DNA from: a virus
DNA length: 17,604 nt
Virus genome (UHGV): UHGV-0097368
Reading direction: 5' to 3' (one strand)
A program made the position numbers and the translations under genes. Below, piece by piece: positions 3,693 to 16,378 of the stretch. The notes beneath the pieces were generated by a model. That model was not told where the DNA came from. It saw only the letters and a list, made by a program, of their open reading frames with translations, and searched no databases. Positions within the stretch are counted from its first letter, which is position 1. Each line of letters starts with the position of its first letter.

Positions 3693-3829
3693 ACGTCCTC
3701 CTTTTCCTGCGGTAGTGGTAACACCCCTGTTGGTGTTCTTTCACATCGGAGACACCATCGATTCCAGTAAGGTTGATTTGGTCGGAAGCGGTTATCTTCT
3801 TTGCATTCACCGCACCGATAACATCGCAT
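3659..3829 (-). CDS. ninD: NinD-position small Cys-rich protein (56 aa)
   Basis: Not in the ORF track (<60 aa). Hand translation: [59 protein letters not shown] overlaps the ninC stop (ATGA); size and position match lambda ninD. Confidence 0.7.
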
Positions 3830-4701
3830 CATGCAGCTTCCCTCCCGAAGTCGAAATCAAGCTGCCCTCCAAATATTTCGCATGACTCAGAACAAGAGCC
3901 GGTATCGAATCTTTTAGCTCGTACCATGTCCTGATACAGGGCTTGATAATCATTTTCTGAATACATTTTCGCGATACCGTCCAGCGACATTCTTCCTCGG
4001 TACATAATCTCCTTTGGCGTTTCCCGATGTCCGTCACGCACATGGGATCCCGTGATGACCTCATTAAAAACACGCTGCAATCCCTCCTCATCTTTGCAGG
4101 CAAGTCCGATTTTTTGCGTTGATTTTTTAATGCAGAATATGCAGTTACCGAGATGTTCCGGTATTTGCAAATCGAATGGTTGTTGCTTCCACCATGCGAG
4201 GATATCTTCCTTCTCAAAGTCTGACAGTTCAGCAAGATATCTGATTCCAGGCTTTGGCTTTAGCCGCTTCGGTTCATCAGCTCTGATGCCAATCCACGTG
4301 GTGTAATTCCCTCGCCCGAAATGGTCATCACAGTATTTGGTGAAGGGAACGAGTTTTAATCTGTCAGTGCAGAACGCGCCGCCGACGTATGGAGTGCCAT
4401 ATTTCTTTACCATATCGATAAATGGCTTCAGAACAGGCATTCGCGTCTGAATATCCTTTGGTTCCCATACCGTATAACCATTTGGCTGTCCAAGCTCCGG
4501 GTTGATATCAACCTGCAATACGGTGAGCGGTATATCCCAGAACTTCACAACTTCCCTGACAAACCGATATGTCATTGGATGTTCACAACCTGTATCCATG
4601 AAAACGTAATGCACGTCTTCACCTTCCCGTCGCTTTTGCTCCATTAGCCAGAGCAAATATGCTGACGTCCTGCCACCTGAGAAACTAACGACATTTATCA
4701 T
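3829..4701 (-). CDS. ninC: NinC (PAPS-reductase-like fold)
   Basis: 290 aa from [22 protein letters not shown]..., lambda NinC type; ATG at 4701 overlaps the stop of the upstream methyltransferase gene (ATGA). Confidence 0.9.
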
Positions 4702-5228
4702 GCAGCCCTCCTGACACCCTGCCCGATCGCCATCAATGCCGCTTTGGATACGGTAGTAAACATCCGTCGAGGACTGATGAATGGTCGCCAAATCAGCAGC
4801 ATGGAGCCTTTGCTGTTTCCCTTCTTCTCCAGCCCCGTCGATGGTTCGATAAAATTAATCCGTCCATCAGTGATAATGCGAACTTCGTCAACACTCTCCA
4901 GAGCCTTGCTGAACCATCCGACAGACATATCCTCTGGCACAAGCATCACTACCGGCTGTCGCTGTTGTATGCACTGCTCAGCGGCTTTTTCCACCCACGG
5001 CCTGATATTGCTGTACGGTGGGTTATTCCAGATTGCACCGTGGCTTATCCACTCAGAATTTAGCGCGTCGTCAGCCTCAGTTAGCCAGTGAGCGCACAGA
5101 GCATTTTTGTCGCTCGCTGCCGAATCCAGCCAGAATCCAAACTCAATATCCAGTGCATCAAAAAGCCAAAGCGGCGTTTGCCAGCAGTCTCTAACTTCTT
5201 TTGGTGTTTCTGATTTATGCTTAATCAT
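4698..5228 (-). CDS. Phage Dam-family DNA N6-adenine methyltransferase (orphan)
   Basis: 176 aa with CWQTP...FDALD...F.LD.AA and a NPPY catalytic motif typical of the phage N6-adenine MTase family; ATGA overlaps on both sides. Confidence 0.8.
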   Translation of the reverse strand: MIKHKSETPKEVRDCWQTPLWLFDALDIEFGFWLDSAASDKNALCAHWLTEADDALNSEWISHGAIWNNPPYSNIRPWVEKAAEQCIQQRQPVVMLVPEDMSVGWFSKALESVDEVRIITDGRINFIEPSTGLEKKGNSKGSMLLIWRPFISPRRMFTTVSKAALMAIGQGVRRAA

Positions 5229-5752
5229 TCAACCCTCGCATATTGTCCGTGATATTTGTTGATAGCCTCACTGGCAACCAAACCAGCAAGCTCAAGATCT
5301 TCATAGAACCCAAAATGCAACCGGCCAAAATCTGTGCGCACTTGAACGGCCCATTTATTTTTTTGCTTGTTCCATAAAACATTTTTTATTCCAGAACGGC
5401 TATTGCACTTAGTTTTCTGATTTCGGCTGTTTGCTATCCGGCTTGCCTCCCTAAGATTTTTTGGGGAATTGTCCAGCCTGTTTCCGTTAATATGGTCAAT
5501 ATTTTTCAATGGCATTCTTTTGTTGTGCAGCGCAAAAACAACTACGTGAACAAACATCTGAATGCCTGCAAAACACACCTGTCTATACCCAGATCCATTT
5601 ATCGATGTTTTAATTTCATCTCCGGCCCGGTGGCTGTGGTTGGGGTGTTTTAGCGAGTCCTTTTTGTACCTGACTGTATCTCCGTCTAAATACAGATAAT
5701 CCTCAATAAGCCGATACCTATCTGACGCTGGCGTATTTGATTTGATAGTCAT
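5225..5752 (-). CDS. HNH homing endonuclease with C-terminal AP2-like DNA-binding domain
   Basis: 175 aa from MTIKSNTPASDRY...; HNH_3-type motif HVVVFALHNKRMPLKNIDHINGNRLDNSPKNLREASRIANSRN; C-terminal WNKQKNKWAVQVRTDFGRLHFGFYEDLELAG is AP2-like. Visibly more AT-rich than the flanks. Confidence 0.8.
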   Translation of the reverse strand: MTIKSNTPASDRYRLIEDYLYLDGDTVRYKKDSLKHPNHSHRAGDEIKTSINGSGYRQVCFAGIQMFVHVVVFALHNKRMPLKNIDHINGNRLDNSPKNLREASRIANSRNQKTKCNSRSGIKNVLWNKQKNKWAVQVRTDFGRLHFGFYEDLELAGLVASEAINKYHGQYARVE

Positions 5753-6189
5753 GCAGCCCGATCTCCCCATCTCGCTTTCCACTCCAGAGCCAGTCTCGCT
5801 TCGTCTGACCACTTAACGCCACGCTCTGTACCGAATGCCTGTATAAGCTCTAATAGATCCGCAAATTCGCTTACACGCATCCTGCTGGTTGACTGGCCTA
5901 TTACCACAAAGCCATTCCCGGCAAGGTTAGGAACAACATCCTGCTGCTTTAATGCTGCGGTAAACACACACTTCCAGCTTTCTGCATCCAGCCAGCGACC
6001 ATGCCATTCAACCTGACGAGAGACGTCACCAAGGCAAGCCCAAAGCTTTCGATTCTGGTCTAAGCTGCGGTTGCGTTCCTGAATGGTTACTACGATTGGT
6101 TTGGTTGGGTCTGGAAGGATTTGCTGTACTGCGTGAATAGCGTTTTGCTGATGTGCTGGAGATCGAATTTCAAAGGTTAGTTTTTTCAT
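5749..6189 (-). CDS. ninB: NinB (Orf-family recombination mediator)
   Basis: 146 aa from MKKLTFEIRSPAHQQNAIHAVQQILPDPTKPIVVTIQERN..., lambda NinB type. Confidence 0.9.
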   Translation of the reverse strand: MKKLTFEIRSPAHQQNAIHAVQQILPDPTKPIVVTIQERNRSLDQNRKLWACLGDVSRQVEWHGRWLDAESWKCVFTAALKQQDVVPNLAGNGFVVIGQSTSRMRVSEFADLLELIQAFGTERGVKWSDEARLALEWKARWGDRAA

Positions 6190-12275: not shown

Positions 12276-12337
12276 AACCATCTGCGGTGATAAATTATCT
12301 CTGGCGGTGTTGACATAAATACCACTGGCGGTGATAC
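12276..12337 (+). promoter_or_regulatory. Left operator OL3-OL2-OL1 and promoter PL
   Basis: OL3 AACCATCTGCGGTGATA 12276-12292, OL2 TATCTCTGGCGGTGTTG 12296-12312, OL1 TACCACTGGCGGTGATA 12320-12336; -35 TTGACA 12310-12315; -10 GATACT 12332-12337. Confidence 0.92.
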
Positions 12338-12378
12338 TGAGCACATCAGCAGGACGCACTGACCACCATTGAAGGTGA

Positions 12379-12409
12379 GGTTCTTAAAAATTAAGCCCTG
12401 AAGAAGGGC
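12379..12409 (+). promoter_or_regulatory. nutL (boxB GCCCTGAAGAAGGGC; boxA position reads GGTTCTTAAAAATTAA)
   Basis: boxB hairpin at 12395-12409 is canonical; the preceding boxA-position sequence deviates from the CGCTCTT(T)A consensus at two bases. Confidence 0.8.
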
Positions 12410-12677
12410 AGCATTCAAAGCAGAAGGCTTTGGGGTGTGGTGAAGCCAGCTAGTCACTGGCAAGTGCTTACCTACTGTTGAGCGGTGAAGCGCTCCCAAC
12501 GCTAGCAATAGCGTGGACGAGATGGGGAGCCGCGGGCGATAAGGCCGCCATAACGCGCACGTTGTCGCATGGAAAAATCGCTGGGGTGCCGGTTATCCCC
12601 CTCCGAATGAGACTCAACAAGCTGGAGCTAGACTACCAGCCACCACACCACCAAAGCTAACTGACAGGAGAATCCAG

Positions 12678-13004
12678 ATGGATGCACAAACACGCCGCCG
12701 CGAACGTCGCGCAGAGAAACAGGCTCAATGGAAAGCAGCAAATCCCCTGTTGGTTGGGGTAAGCGCAAAACCAGTTAACCGCCCTATTCTCTCGCTGAAT
12801 CGCAAACCGAAATCACGAGTAGAAAGCGCACTGAATCCGATAGACCTTACGGTGCTGGCTGAATACCACGAACAGATTGAAAGCAACCTGCAACGTATTG
12901 AACGCAAGAATCAGCGCACATGGTACAGCAAGCCACGCAGTGAAATGGGTGTGACTTGTGTTGGTCGCCAGAAAATGAAATTAGGCAGCAAACCACTTAT
13001 TTGA
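12678..13004 (+). CDS. N: Antiterminator N (lambda-type, variant C-terminal region)
   Basis: 108 aa MDAQTRRRERRAEKQAQWKAANPLLVGVSAKPVNRPILSLNRKPKSRVESALNPIDLTVLAEYH...; Arg-rich boxB-binding motif at the N-terminus; the last ~25 residues differ from lambda N as I recall it. Confidence 0.92.
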   Translation: MDAQTRRRERRAEKQAQWKAANPLLVGVSAKPVNRPILSLNRKPKSRVESALNPIDLTVLAEYHEQIESNLQRIERKNQRTWYSKPRSEMGVTCVGRQKMKLGSKPLI

Positions 13005-13012
13005 GGTGAGAT

Positions 13013-13483
13013 ATGACAAAATCATGGAGCGTACCTTTTCCTGAATCAGAAACTGAACATGATGGAATGCCTGTTTTCTGGAGATTCCAGGCGACAGTTG
13101 AAGAAGATGGGATAAAAATATTCGCACTTCAATATATAGCTTTTCATCAGACAGAGCATTATGCATGGTTGGTTCCTGCGCATTGGATTGTTAATTTTAA
13201 ACCAGCACCAAATCAGTGGTTACAGGAATGGAAACAAAGGAGAAATAGATATGCAATTAAGAAAGTAGCAAAAAATGCAGAAAGATCTTTTGCATTCCCA
13301 ACGAAGAAACTTGCCATTGAGAGTTTATTGCGCCGGAAGAAATACCATTTAATGAGAATCAAACAAGATTTGGCTGTTGTATCAACTCTTGTTGATGGGA
13401 TGAAGAATATTGATACATCAACACCAGATATTGAATATAACTTTGGGCACAACCAAGAAACAGAAAATTGGGTATTTTATTAG
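13013..13483 (+). CDS. Hypothetical 156 aa protein (AT-rich moron at the position of lambda ral/sieB)
   Basis: Uninterrupted ORF starting 9 nt after the N stop with GAGGTGAG upstream; no family recognised; codon-level AT-richness far above the neighbours. Confidence 0.6.
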   Translation: MTKSWSVPFPESETEHDGMPVFWRFQATVEEDGIKIFALQYIAFHQTEHYAWLVPAHWIVNFKPAPNQWLQEWKQRRNRYAIKKVAKNAERSFAFPTKKLAIESLLRRKKYHLMRIKQDLAVVSTLVDGMKNIDTSTPDIEYNFGHNQETENWVFY

Positions 13484-13587
13484 TACGAGTAAGCACTGTG
13501 TGTTAATTCCAACGAGTGAATACACGGAGCAATGTCGCTCGTAACTAAACAGGAGCCGACTTGTTCTGATTATTGGAAATCTTCTTT

Positions 13588-13611
13588 GCCCTCCAATGTG
13601 AGGGCTTTTTT
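13588..13611 (+). terminator. Intrinsic terminator between orf156 and the cIII-like gene
   Basis: GCCCTC-CAATGT-GAGGGC followed by TTTTTT. Confidence 0.7.
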
Positions 13612-13677
13612 ATATGCATACCAATAACTCTTCACTCGAGGCGTTTTCGTTATGCAATCAAACAGAAGGAGCATCCT

Positions 13678-13848
13678 ATGCAACAGTTCGCTATTGCAGG
13701 GGCGGCATCGGTTCGCCCTTTCAACCCGATTTTATCGGTACAGCATTCACGAAAAAATATTTTAACCGGAGCAGACTTTAAACAACCAAGAATGAAAAGT
13801 TTGCTCGAAAAGCTTTGGGATATTTTGAAACAACAAGGCCGTCCATGA
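13678..13848 (+). CDS. cIII: cIII-like protein (FtsH-inhibitor family), divergent
   Basis: 56 aa MQQFAIAGAASVRPFNPILSVQHSRKNILTGADFKQPRMKSLLEKLWDILKQQGRP; shares MQ.AIAG at the start and the SLLE...L.DIL.Q.G tail with lambda CIII; AGGAG upstream. Confidence 0.7.
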   Translation: MQQFAIAGAASVRPFNPILSVQHSRKNILTGADFKQPRMKSLLEKLWDILKQQGRP

Positions 13849-14015
13849 GTTTTACAGATAACTGGTCAGACGAAGAATTCATTCGTCAGATGAAAGATTT
13901 AATCGGTAACGAAGGAGATATTCATGTCACTTGCAACCACAGTGAAGGAGAGCAAGTTACAGAGACGCATGTACACGCAGCAGGCGTTAATGTATCGCCA
14001 GAAGGGAGATCGTGA
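13845..14015 (+). CDS. Hypothetical small protein (56 aa) at the kil/arf position
   Basis: ATG overlaps the cIII-like stop (ATGA); MSFTDNWSDEEFIRQMKDLIGNEGDIHVTCNHSEGEQ...; no family recognised. Confidence 0.4.
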   Translation: MSFTDNWSDEEFIRQMKDLIGNEGDIHVTCNHSEGEQVTETHVHAAGVNVSPEGRS

Positions 14016-15711: not shown

Positions 15712-15872
15712 GAGGACTTGCATACAATCCCGGCATTCTTCCGGCAGAAATGATTATTCGCCAACGCGTAAAGCCAATGCCATCGAGAGAGGAATTGCTT
15801 AAGAGAAATTCTTTTCCATCAGTGAATCAAAACAAATATCTGAATGCGATGTGGCGGAGTGGGAAGAAATGA
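15708..15872 (+). CDS. Hypothetical small protein (54 aa)
   Basis: Not in the ORF track; ATGA overlaps at both ends; [54 protein letters not shown]. Confidence 0.45.
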
Positions 15873-16378
15873 AACAAATGTCACTAATTGAGATGGATGG
15901 ATTTCTGAAAGGTAAATGCATCCCACGAGATTTAAAGGTTAACGAAACAAACGCTGAATATCTGGTGCGTAAATTTGCTGAAGCGGAGGCCAAGTGCGCT
16001 GCGCTGGCGGCGGAGAATGCGGGGCTGAAGGGTGCGTTTGATAAGCCTCAAGCATATCTATCCTGGCACGCTATTCCACCAACCTGGGAAGACCCGCTCC
16101 CATGCGGTGAATATCTTGATGTTCATGACGAGGCAGGACACAAAAACTCCGATGGAACTGATTGCTGGCCGGTATATGCCAAGCCAGAAATCGAAACCCC
16201 AGCCACCGACGCTTTCTTGGCTGAAGTACGTGCGCAGGCGTTTAATGACCTTTGCTCGGTGTTCGTTAAGGACGCGACGGTTGCCGGGCTGGACGATGGC
16301 GACATCGTTACGGTGAAAGAAGCGAAGGACGCCCTGCTGCATTGTGCGGAGCAGCTTCGCAAAGGAGGCAACCAGTGA
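15869..16378 (+). CDS. Hypothetical protein (169 aa)
   Basis: ATG at 15869 coupled to the upstream stop; [55 protein letters not shown]...; no family recognised. Confidence 0.6.

What the first reader, a model, noticed from the sequence alone, without database searches (positions are those of the whole stretch)
13013..13483. AT-rich unknown gene (orf156) inserted directly after N, where lambda carries ral and sieB
A 156 aa ORF starts 9 nt after the N stop with a strong Shine-Dalgarno, so it is co-transcribed from PL. It is followed by an intrinsic terminator (13588-13611) before the cIII-like gene. It is far more AT-rich than N or cIII, the signature of a horizontally acquired moron. In lambda and P22 this slot holds anti-restriction (ral) and superinfection-exclusion (sieB) genes, so it is a known hotspot for defence and anti-defence cargo. 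I recognise no family or catalytic motif; the central segment KQRRNRYAIKKVAKNAERSFAFPTKKLAIESLLRRKKYHLMRIKQDL is very basic (possible nucleic-acid binding). This is the best candidate in the window for an undescribed function.
Basis: partly seen in the sequence, partly recalled or inferred. Interest (0 to 1): 0.6.

Follow-up and report, generated by a model that had tools for sequence, protein, structure and literature searches.

The report
Uncharacterised early phage gene after N
This is a real, strongly conserved lambdoid-phage gene (the same as HK97 gp45 and an unnamed gene of Shiga-toxin phage 933W) that sits in a cargo-swapping slot right after the antiterminator N; its function is still unknown and its predicted fold matches no solved structure, so it is a reasonable candidate for testing, not a discovery.

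Summary
Window 13013-13483 (+) is a 156-aa ORF starting 9 nt after N. Its Shine-Dalgarno overlaps the N stop, an intrinsic terminator follows, and its GC (36%) is the lowest in the window.

It is not a new sequence. It is HK97 gp45, 933W ST933Wp19 and phi24B vb_24B_11c (phrog_1636, unknown function), and the exact protein occurs on at least 1000 public contigs.

It is one of at least a dozen alternative genes in a swap slot. The slot is bounded by the 3' end of N and a ~120-nt non-coding element plus terminator, which lambda itself carries after ral. Ral is the commonest occupant and the only one with a known function.

No promoter of its own was predicted, so it should be made from PL with N during lytic growth and be silent in the prophage.

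The protein is soluble, with a basic core and acidic ends, and is under strong purifying selection. It belongs to a phage-only family of ~130-160-aa proteins; some members are in phages with no integrase in the region viewed, and fold relatives are in lytic-type phages. A confident AlphaFold model (pLDDT 95) has no significant relative in the PDB.

No Pfam, NCBIfam, PADLOC or literature assignment exists. My best guess, at low confidence, is a dispensable early-lytic accessory protein that binds a polyanionic partner, possibly for counter-defence.

The parts
12310..12338 (+). PL promoter (TTGACA, 17-nt spacer, GATACT), identical to lambda PL
12395..12409 (+). nutL boxB hairpin (GCCCTGAAGAAGGGC), identical to lambda; the boxA just upstream reads GGTTCTTA where lambda has CGCTCTTA
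   Evidence: lambda Nutl annotation
12678..13004 (+). Antiterminator N, lambda type, 108 aa
   Evidence: Pfam N36 E = 1.5e-26; near-identical to lambda N up to 12934
12935..13004 (+). Left junction of the swap slot. The last ~18-23 codons of N diverge from lambda. From 12951 they are identical to the non-coding N-remnant that precedes gp45 in HK97 and phi24B.
   Evidence: in 80 loci homology to the window breaks ~50 or ~78 nt upstream of the ATG
13003..13009 (+). Shine-Dalgarno GAGGTGA overlapping the N stop codon, 4 nt before the ATG; translational coupling to N is plausible
   Evidence: read from sequence; coupling is inferred
13013..13483 (+). orf156: 18.6-kDa soluble protein, the same gene as HK97 gp45, 933W ST933Wp19 and phi24B vb_24B_11c; phrog_1636
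   Evidence: purifying selection; AlphaFold pLDDT 95
13491..13587 (+). Conserved non-coding stretch shared with lambda (downstream of ral), HK97 and phi24B; right junction of the swap slot; predicted RNA structure z = -3.2
13588..13611 (+). Intrinsic-terminator-like hairpin GCCCTC-CAATGT-GAGGGC plus T6; homologous to the lambda hairpin at 33931-33952, between ral and ea10
   Evidence: annotated as a putative terminator in HK97
13626..13653 (+). Weakened copy of a second lambda hairpin (lambda 33493-33512) just upstream of cIII; not flagged as a terminator in the window
   Evidence: absent
13678..13848 (+). cIII-like gene (56 aa), the next gene downstream
   Evidence: phrog_550 E = 1e-22

Best explanation
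orf156 is a genuine, dispensable accessory gene of the lambdoid early-left (PL) operon.

Shown:
- It is one of many interchangeable genes in a slot bounded by the 3' end of N and a conserved ~120-nt element with a terminator.
- No promoter of its own is predicted, and its ribosome-binding site overlaps the N stop codon.
- It lies upstream of the first predicted intrinsic terminator on the PL transcript.
- It encodes a soluble 156-aa alpha/beta protein: a sheet of strands 19-30, 33-46, 50-55 and 83-86, packed with a long basic helix 98-130. It has acidic ends and no transmembrane segment.
- It belongs to a phage-only family whose conserved polar positions are mostly basic.
- Its predicted fold has no significant relative among solved structures.

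Inferred:
- It is transcribed from PL and translated together with N at the start of infection or induction, and it is silent in the repressed prophage.
- Its conserved basic surface binds a polyanionic partner, such as nucleic acid, a nucleotide-type ligand or an acidic host protein.
- Its job is to overcome or modulate a host barrier early in lytic growth. That would be a counter-defence or host-modulation role, analogous in logic, but not in sequence or fold, to Ral, which occupies the same slot in lambda.

The gene-level and expression-logic parts are about 0.9 likely. The counter-defence or host-modulation function is about 0.35-0.4 likely.
For: Real gene:
- The exact protein is on at least 1000 contigs.
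- It is 100% identical in 74 phage records.
- Orthologues of 55-85% identity occur in Pectobacterium, Brenneria, Cronobacter and Rosenbergiella.
- Synonymous sites are saturated, with pN 0.18-0.30 and dN/dS about 0.14.

Expression logic:
- No sigma-70-like site lies between PL (12310-12338) and 13851. The first terminator-like site after the nutL boxB hairpin is at 13588.
- The Shine-Dalgarno overlaps the N stop.

Dispensable, swappable cargo:
- Lambda, HK446, HK544 and Sf101 carry ral or other genes there instead.
- Junctions sit in the N 3' end and at the shared element.
- At least 12 cargo families occupy the slot, and Ral, the only one with a known function, is an anti-restriction protein.
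- Further genes are inserted beside orf156 in some prophages.

General early function rather than a lysogeny function:
- The profile search found 87 relatives.
- Members occur in Vibrio, Pseudomonas, Proteus, Salmonella, Klebsiella and Pantoea phages and in E. coli phage Bas81. Structural relatives occur in N4-like and other phages.
- Members often sit first or second after the regulatory region, or last before xis/int.

Protein properties:
- AlphaFold pLDDT is 95.1 and pTM 0.82.
- Maximum hydropathy is 0.56, so no transmembrane segment. Net charge is +12 over residues 57-130 and -9 at the ends.
- Family-wide conserved positions are basic at 24, 75, 83, 84, 87, 91/92 and 109, plus E46, T47, G33 and A101.
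Against: - There is no direct functional evidence of any kind, and no named homologue in Pfam, NCBIfam, PADLOC, PHROGs or by PDB sequence.
- Known anti-restriction DNA mimics are acidic, whereas this protein is basic.
- The other occupants of the slot are mostly uncharacterised, and some look like membrane proteins. Slot membership is therefore weak evidence by association.
- Several distant members lie next to recombination, integration or ParB/RusA genes, which fits a DNA-transaction role equally well.
- The promoter scan is a simple consensus scan. Rho-dependent termination inside or before the gene cannot be excluded.
Confidence: 0.4

Rival explanations
1. It is a phage-intrinsic nucleic-acid transaction or regulatory factor. 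Possible roles are an accessory DNA- or RNA-binding protein that helps recombination, replication start, integration/excision or early gene regulation. It would not be directed at host defences.
For: - The core is basic, with conserved K/R positions.
- Distant members lie directly upstream of xis-int.
- One member heads a recT/yqaJ/ssb operon, and another heads an operon with ParB-like and RusA genes in Bas81.
- In a Vibrio phage a member sits between a cro-like gene and Rha, YopX and replication genes.
- PMC12315714 notes that extra DNA-interaction proteins cluster at the two ends of the early-left operon.
Against: - Distribution is sporadic among otherwise near-identical lambdoid phages, and in the same slot it is replaced by Ral and unrelated small genes.
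- It has no consistent partner gene across contexts.
Confidence: 0.3
2. It is a prophage-expressed moron that gives the lysogen superinfection exclusion or defence, as SieB, P22 gp17-like proteins or HK97 gp15 do.
For: - It has a foreign base composition.
- It sits in the slot that holds sieB in lambda, next to a gp17-like 'superinfection exclusion protein' in some prophages.
- The window's phage also carries rexAB nearby.
Against: - No promoter is predicted between PL and the gene, so it should be repressed in the lysogen.
- It has the same orientation as PL, whereas lambda sieB is annotated on the opposite strand.
- It has no transmembrane segment and no PADLOC match.
- Family members occur in phages with no integrase in the region viewed (Bas81, T1-sized Salmonella and Klebsiella phages), and fold relatives occur in N4-like phages.
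Confidence: 0.12
3. It is a host-takeover or growth-arrest factor, such as a nucleoid- or transcription-directed inhibitor made with N, comparable in logic to Kil.
For: Expression is inferred to be immediate-early. The protein is basic. It is present in virulent-type phages as well.
Against: There are no data on toxicity. The phage already encodes early host-directed functions downstream. No similarity to any known host-shutoff protein was found.
Confidence: 0.1
4. It is a chance ORF or a decaying pseudogene with no function.
For: None beyond the absence of any annotation.
Against: - The chance probability of the open frame is about 3e-6.
- Residues are invariant across genera, and selection is strongly purifying.
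- A confident AlphaFold model was obtained from a diverse alignment.
- The family has 87 members in the profile search.
Confidence: 0.01

Closest known systems
HK97 gp45 (NP_037731.1); 933W ST933Wp19 (NP_049479.1); phi24B vb_24B_11c; Stx2 phage 86 orf57; PHROG family phrog_1636
   Same: It is the same gene. The DNA is near-identical from the N 3' remnant through the terminator, and it has the same position after N. The match to phrog_1636 is full-length at E = 2.7e-112.
   Different: Nothing of substance. The upstream N is lambda-type here, whereas HK97 and 933W have a 127-aa N type. None of these entries has an assigned function.
Lambda Ral (restriction alleviation; phrog_1055)
   Same: It occupies the same swap slot, directly upstream of the same conserved non-coding element and terminator. 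It has the same orientation and is expressed from PL. It is dispensable and sporadically distributed.
   Different: Ral is 66 aa with no sequence similarity (no Pfam or PHROG overlap). In lambda, Ral lies about 1 kb beyond N rather than abutting it. No functional link has been tested.
Lambda/P22 SieB and P22 gp17-type superinfection-exclusion proteins
   Same: They lie in the same region between N and cIII.
   Different: Lambda sieB is annotated on the opposite strand. The gp17-like gene is a separate 103-104-aa ORF that coexists with orf156 in H-19B and some prophages. orf156 has no transmembrane segment, no predicted promoter of its own and no sequence similarity to them.
Morons in the Hendrix sense (for example HK97 gp15)
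   Same: It has a deviant base composition, it sits between genes that are adjacent in relatives, and a terminator follows it.
   Different: No promoter of its own is predicted. The terminator belongs to the shared backbone and is present in lambda without this gene. It is therefore alternative cargo in a swap slot, not a self-contained transcription unit.
Three-stranded-sheet-plus-helix DNA-binding domains (AP2/ERF; integrase arm-binding and DUF4102-type domains)
   Same: There is a superficial pattern resemblance: a 'YR' strand start, a hairpin glycine, and a strand followed by a helix that begins T/S-K-x-x-A. This is recalled from memory as a lead only.

Membership tests
phrog_1636 / HK97 gp45 family (function unknown) | Full-length sequence match to the family profile | tested here: met
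   E = 2.7e-112, residues 1-156 against profile positions 1-156 of 156. The DNA is near-identical to HK97 gp45 over the whole gene.
phrog_1636 / HK97 gp45 family (function unknown) | Same genomic position (first gene after N in the PL operon) in E. coli lambdoid phages | tested here: met
   HK97, 933W, phi24B and H-19B. In 80 IMG/VR loci the upstream gene is usually one of three N types.
Moron (self-contained promoter-gene-terminator unit expressed from the prophage) | Base composition different from the flanks | tested here: met
   GC is 36.3% against 46.5% for the window, in the lowest 0.1% of windows.
Moron (self-contained promoter-gene-terminator unit expressed from the prophage) | Promoter of its own upstream of the gene | tested here: not met
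   No sigma-70-like site lies between 12338 and 13851. This was a consensus scan only; no expression data were available.
Moron (self-contained promoter-gene-terminator unit expressed from the prophage) | Terminator belonging to the inserted unit | tested here: not met
   The hairpin and the ~120 nt before it are present in lambda downstream of ral, without orf156.
Ral (restriction alleviation) | Sequence membership in the Ral family (about 66 aa) | tested here: not met
   There is no Ral hit in Pfam or PHROGs for orf156. True Ral from the same slot matches phrog_1055 at 7e-49.
Ral (restriction alleviation) | Alleviation of type I restriction in vivo | not testable with these tools
   This needs plating of unmodified phage on EcoKI+ hosts with and without orf156.
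SieB / superinfection exclusion | Membrane association and expression in the lysogen from its own promoter | tested here: not met
   Maximum 19-aa hydropathy is 0.56, so there is no transmembrane segment. No promoter is predicted. The gene has the same strand as PL, while lambda sieB is annotated on the opposite strand.
Known defence-system proteins (PADLOC-DB) | Match to a defence-system profile | tested here: not met
   The only match is a noise-level Cas1_II hit at E = 0.018, 12 bits. RexA and RexB in the same window match strongly, so the library worked.
Structurally characterised anti-defence proteins (Ocr, ArdA, KlcA, Gam, sponges and others) | Fold similarity to a solved structure | tested here: not met
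AP2 / integrase-arm type DNA-binding fold | Significant structural superposition | tested here: inconclusive

The most novel reading that the evidence does not exclude
orf156 is the E. coli representative of a widespread, phage-only protein family with a previously unsolved fold. It would act as an immediate-early counter-defence factor made with N before antitermination. For example, it could sequester a nucleic-acid or nucleotide-type immune signal, or block a host nuclease or sensor, through its conserved basic face. Under this reading, the N-proximal slot bounded by the N 3' end and the shared ~120-nt element is a general anti-defence locus of lambdoid and Shiga-toxin phages, whose dozen or so other cargo families are equally uncharacterised.
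Probability: 0.25. Interest if true: 0.7.

Novelty: new member of a known kind. Interest (0 to 1): 0.4.

Why it matters
The protein is carried by HK97, 933W, phi24B and many Stx1/Stx2 phages. About a tenth of complete E. coli genomes hold most of an 801-nt query centred on it (533 of 5426). Yet it has no assigned function and no solved structural relative.

It is positioned to be among the first phage proteins made. If it proves to be a counter-defence or host-modulating factor, it would add a new fold family to that repertoire. It would also mark a clearly delimited hotspot, anchored on a conserved element, from which a dozen further uncharacterised cargo genes could be drawn.

If it proves to be a minor DNA-handling accessory, it is ordinary. 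Either way, the present evidence makes it a sensible item for a screen, not a finding in itself.

Tried and rejected
- AlphaFold with the shallow 20-sequence enterobacterial alignment gave pLDDT 60. I did not use it for fold search. The 85-sequence alignment gave pLDDT 95.
- Foldseek against afdb50 was not available.
- The search for related loci with the broad alignment failed for lack of a conserved stretch. With the close alignment it returned only identical E. coli copies, which I then used for junction mapping.
- Two long hits from the profile search (P0066, P0080) looked like possible domain fusions but are repetitive, spurious matches. P0051 only has a Cys-rich N-terminal extension.
- I considered that orf156 might be P22 gp17. 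It is not: H-19B has both genes, and orf156 is simply unannotated there.
- I considered a structured RNA in the 3' non-coding stretch. There is no Rfam match even at E <= 1. It folds better than shuffles (z = -3.2), but I did not pursue it.
- Literature searches found nothing on this protein. The terms were vb_24B_11c, phrog_1636, WP_000167595, NP_049479/ST933Wp19/NP_037731/HK97p36, 'HK97 gp45' (twice), lambdoid anti-defence terms, ral/sieB hotspot, and 'downstream of N'. The 'gp45' in the OLD preprint is HK578 gp45, which is unrelated.
- Gene neighbourhoods of distant members are mostly arrays of small unannotated genes and gave no recurrent partner.

Full report
**1. The observation**

Window 13013-13483 (+) is an ATG-initiated ORF of 156 codons. 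It follows the antiterminator gene N (12678-13004; Pfam N36 E = 1.5e-26) after an 8-nt spacer. The purine run GAGGTGA (13003-13009) overlaps the N stop codon and ends 4 nt before the ATG.

A hairpin at 13588-13605 (6 pairs, 5 of them G-C) followed by six T is the first terminator-like site downstream of the nutL boxB hairpin on this strand. No sigma-70-like site was found between PL (12310-12338, identical to lambda PL) and 13851.

The gene has 36.3% GC (GC3 28.7%), against 49.5% for N, 42.7% for the cIII-like gene (13678-13848, phrog_550) and 46.5% for the window. Only 0.1% of 471-nt windows are lower. With its A+T-rich composition, the chance of 156 stop-free codons is about 3e-6.

**2. Context**

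The window is the early region of a lambdoid phage or prophage with lambda immunity.
- On the + strand: cI, rexA, rexB, PL, nutL, N, orf156, cIII, a 56-aa ORF, erf, an SSB-like gene and abc2.
- On the - strand: cII, an O-like initiator, a primase/helicase, nin-region genes, Q, holin and endolysin.

**3. The gene is not new**

The protein is 100% identical in 74 phage records and at least 95% identical in 79. It is annotated as HK97 gp45, 933W ST933Wp19, phi24B vb_24B_11c and Stx2 phage 86 orf57. It is also annotated in BP-4795 and in the BASEL phages Huey and CurroJimenez. In H-19B it is present but unannotated.

The exact sequence is on at least 1000 public contigs, always as 'hypothetical' or 'prophage protein'. 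An 801-nt query centred on it is at least 80% covered in 533 of 5426 complete E. coli genomes. It matches phrog_1636 (unknown function) end to end at E = 2.7e-112.

**4. A real protein under selection**

Orthologues of 55-85% identity occur in prophages of Pectobacterium, Brenneria, Cronobacter, Rosenbergiella and Symbiopectobacterium, with 40 invariant residues. Between genera, synonymous sites are saturated (pS 0.70-0.92) while pN is 0.18-0.30. Where it can be computed, dN/dS is about 0.14. The orthologues are also lower in GC than their flanks.

**5. Anatomy of the slot**

I aligned the window with HK97, phi24B and lambda.

*Left boundary.* The window's N is lambda N up to 12934. The last ~18-23 codons diverge from lambda. 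From 12951 they are identical to a stretch that, in HK97 and phi24B, lies after the stop codon of their different, 127-aa N. There it is a non-coding remnant of a lambda-type N 3' end.

*Right boundary.* The ~120 nt after the orf156 stop, including the terminator hairpin, are about 95% identical to lambda DNA downstream of ral (lambda 33931 to about 34060). The hairpin itself is at lambda 33931-33952, between ral and ea10. A second lambda hairpin (33493-33512, just before cIII) is present in weakened form at 13626-13653. From memory, these two positions correspond to the lambda tL2 terminator cluster; I did not check that here.

*What this means.* The terminator is shared backbone, not part of an orf156 cassette.
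- In 80 IMG/VR loci with the identical protein, homology to the window breaks ~50 or ~78 nt upstream of the ATG and ~105-116 nt after the stop.
- The upstream gene is one of at least three N types, or in a minority a non-N gene.

*Survey of occupants.* I used a 30-mer of the shared element as an anchor and collected 120 loci, of which 107 had enough upstream DNA. The gene ending just upstream of the element was:
- Ral in about 34
- orf156 in 14
- a membrane-like 121-149-aa family in about 12
- a 207-aa family in about 9
- a 62-aa family in 7
- at least seven further families in the rest

Only Ral has a known function. Some prophages carry orf156 plus an extra gene, either a P22-gp17-like 'superinfection exclusion protein' or two hypotheticals, before the element. 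But orf156 is alternative cargo in a swap slot, not a classical moron.

**6. Expression logic (inferred)**

No promoter of its own is predicted, the ribosome-binding site overlaps the N stop, and no terminator is predicted before 13588. orf156 should therefore be on the same PL transcript as N. It should be translated with N, be independent of antitermination, and be silent while cI represses PL. Rho-dependent termination and weak promoters cannot be excluded by a consensus scan.

**7. The protein**

It is 18.6 kDa with pI 9.1. There is no hydrophobic segment (maximum 19-aa hydropathy 0.56). Net charge is +12 over residues 57-130 and -9 over the two ends.

*Homology.* There is no significant hit in Pfam, NCBIfam, PADLOC or PDB sequences. 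An exhaustive profile search of 1.84 billion representatives found 87 proteins at E <= 1e-3. Most are 130-155 aa and match positions ~19-140. All fall in unknown-function PHROGs (1636, 13631, 25384), have no Pfam domain and carry no source name.

*Conservation.* Positions conserved across the distant members are:
- an aromatic at 23 and a basic residue at 24
- G33, E46 and T47
- basic residues at 75, 83 and 84
- K87, R91/92, A101 and K109
- core hydrophobics

*Structure.* With the 85-sequence alignment, AlphaFold2 gave pLDDT 95.1 and pTM 0.82. It predicts strands 19-30, 33-46, 50-55 and 83-86, short helices 58-61 and 66-74, a 33-residue helix 98-130, and an ordered C-terminal tail.
- Foldseek against the PDB gave a best E of 1.1.
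- Foldseek against BFVD gave 13 hits at E <= 1e-3, all uncharacterised proteins. They come from Erwinia, Achromobacter, Delftia, Sinorhizobium, Rhizobium, Tenacibaculum and Cellulophaga phages.

**8. Where family members sit**

- In E. coli lambdoids: first after N.
- In Pectobacterium, Brenneria, Pseudomonas phage Medea1 and a metagenomic contig: last or near-last before xis/int.
- In Rosenbergiella: at the head of a recT/yqaJ/ssb operon.
- In Vibrio phage PvVp04: second, after a cro-like gene and before Rha and YopX.
- In E. coli phage Bas81: first in an operon with ParB-like and RusA genes, with no integrase in view.

tblastn also finds members in Salmonella, Klebsiella, Proteus, Pantoea, Pseudomonas and Vibrio phages. 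The two ends of the early-left operon are described as places where extra genes accumulate (PMC12315714). No partner gene recurs.

**9. Interpretation**

I regard the following as established. orf156 is a real, dispensable, horizontally exchanged early gene encoding a soluble basic alpha/beta protein of a phage-only family with no solved relative.

The function is not established.

*Preferred reading (about 0.35-0.4).* It is an early-lytic accessory factor that binds a polyanionic partner and counters or modulates a host barrier. The reasons are:
- its inferred immediate-early timing
- its dispensability
- its slot-mate Ral
- its presence outside prophages
- its conserved basic positions

*Main rival (about 0.3).* It is a phage-intrinsic DNA- or RNA-handling or regulatory accessory, suggested by its neighbours in distant phages.

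*Other rivals.* A prophage-expressed exclusion gene (about 0.12) fits poorly with the absence of a predicted promoter and of any membrane segment. A Kil-like host-arrest factor (about 0.1) is possible. A spurious ORF is excluded.

**10. Literature**

Ten searches of the held library found no paper on this protein. A 2026 preprint on P2 OLD (10.64898/2026.07.10.737580) concerns neighbouring genes, not orf156.

**11. Verdict**

This is a correct observation of a long-catalogued but uncharacterised gene. It is a good screening candidate in a well-delimited hotspot. Nothing here shows an unusual mechanism. Interest 0.4.

Noticed in passing
window 13491-13611 (and lambda about 33931-34060): A ~120-nt non-coding stretch ending in an intrinsic terminator is about 95-99% conserved between this window, lambda (after ral), HK97 and phi24B, while the gene upstream of it varies among at least 12 families. 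It folds better than shuffled controls (z = -3.2) and has no Rfam match. It may be a recombination linker, a terminator module or an undescribed RNA element.
   Followed up: partly
window 13845-14015 (+): A 56-aa ORF between cIII and erf (phrog_2123, labelled 'recombinase') is 95% identical to HK446 gp33. A 2026 preprint (10.64898/2026.07.10.737580) reports that HK75 Gp33, at this position, is sufficient to trigger the P2 OLD abortive-infection protein.
   Followed up: partly
window 15851-16378 (+): A 175-aa ORF (phrog_614) is a mosaic relative (40% identity, conserved N- and C-termini) of HK446 gp27. The same preprint names HK446 gp27 Oad2 and describes it as an inhibitor of P2 OLD.
   Followed up: partly
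window 12380-12640: The nutL boxB is identical to lambda, but the boxA position reads GGTTCTTA where lambda has CGCTCTTA. About 100-150 nt of the nutL-to-N leader are replaced or inserted relative to lambda.
   Followed up: no
window 12935-13004: The last ~18-23 codons of an otherwise lambda-identical N are replaced by a variant ending (...MGVTCVGRQKMKLGSKPLI). The same ending survives as a non-coding remnant downstream of the unrelated N genes of HK97 and phi24B. This is direct evidence that recombination within the N 3' end moves the downstream cargo.
   Followed up: yes
window 3829-5812 (-): The nin region carries a PAPS-reductase-like gene (3829-4791), a DNA methyltransferase (4698-5228) and an HNH endonuclease (5225-5812) in a row. 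This may be a DNA-modification or self-protection module. Replication genes are an O-like initiator plus a 626-aa primase/helicase instead of lambda P.
   Followed up: no
L011 3227-3538; L012 3131-3627; L097 1476-1787: Some E. coli prophages and H-19B carry additional small genes between orf156 and the shared terminator element: a P22-gp17-like 'superinfection exclusion protein', or two hypotheticals. The slot can therefore hold stacked cargo.
   Followed up: partly
AF034975.3 (H-19B), locus L097 about 862-1332: The orf156 homologue is present but unannotated in the H-19B GenBank record. A 672-nt 'gap' between N and gene 17 contains it.
   Followed up: yes
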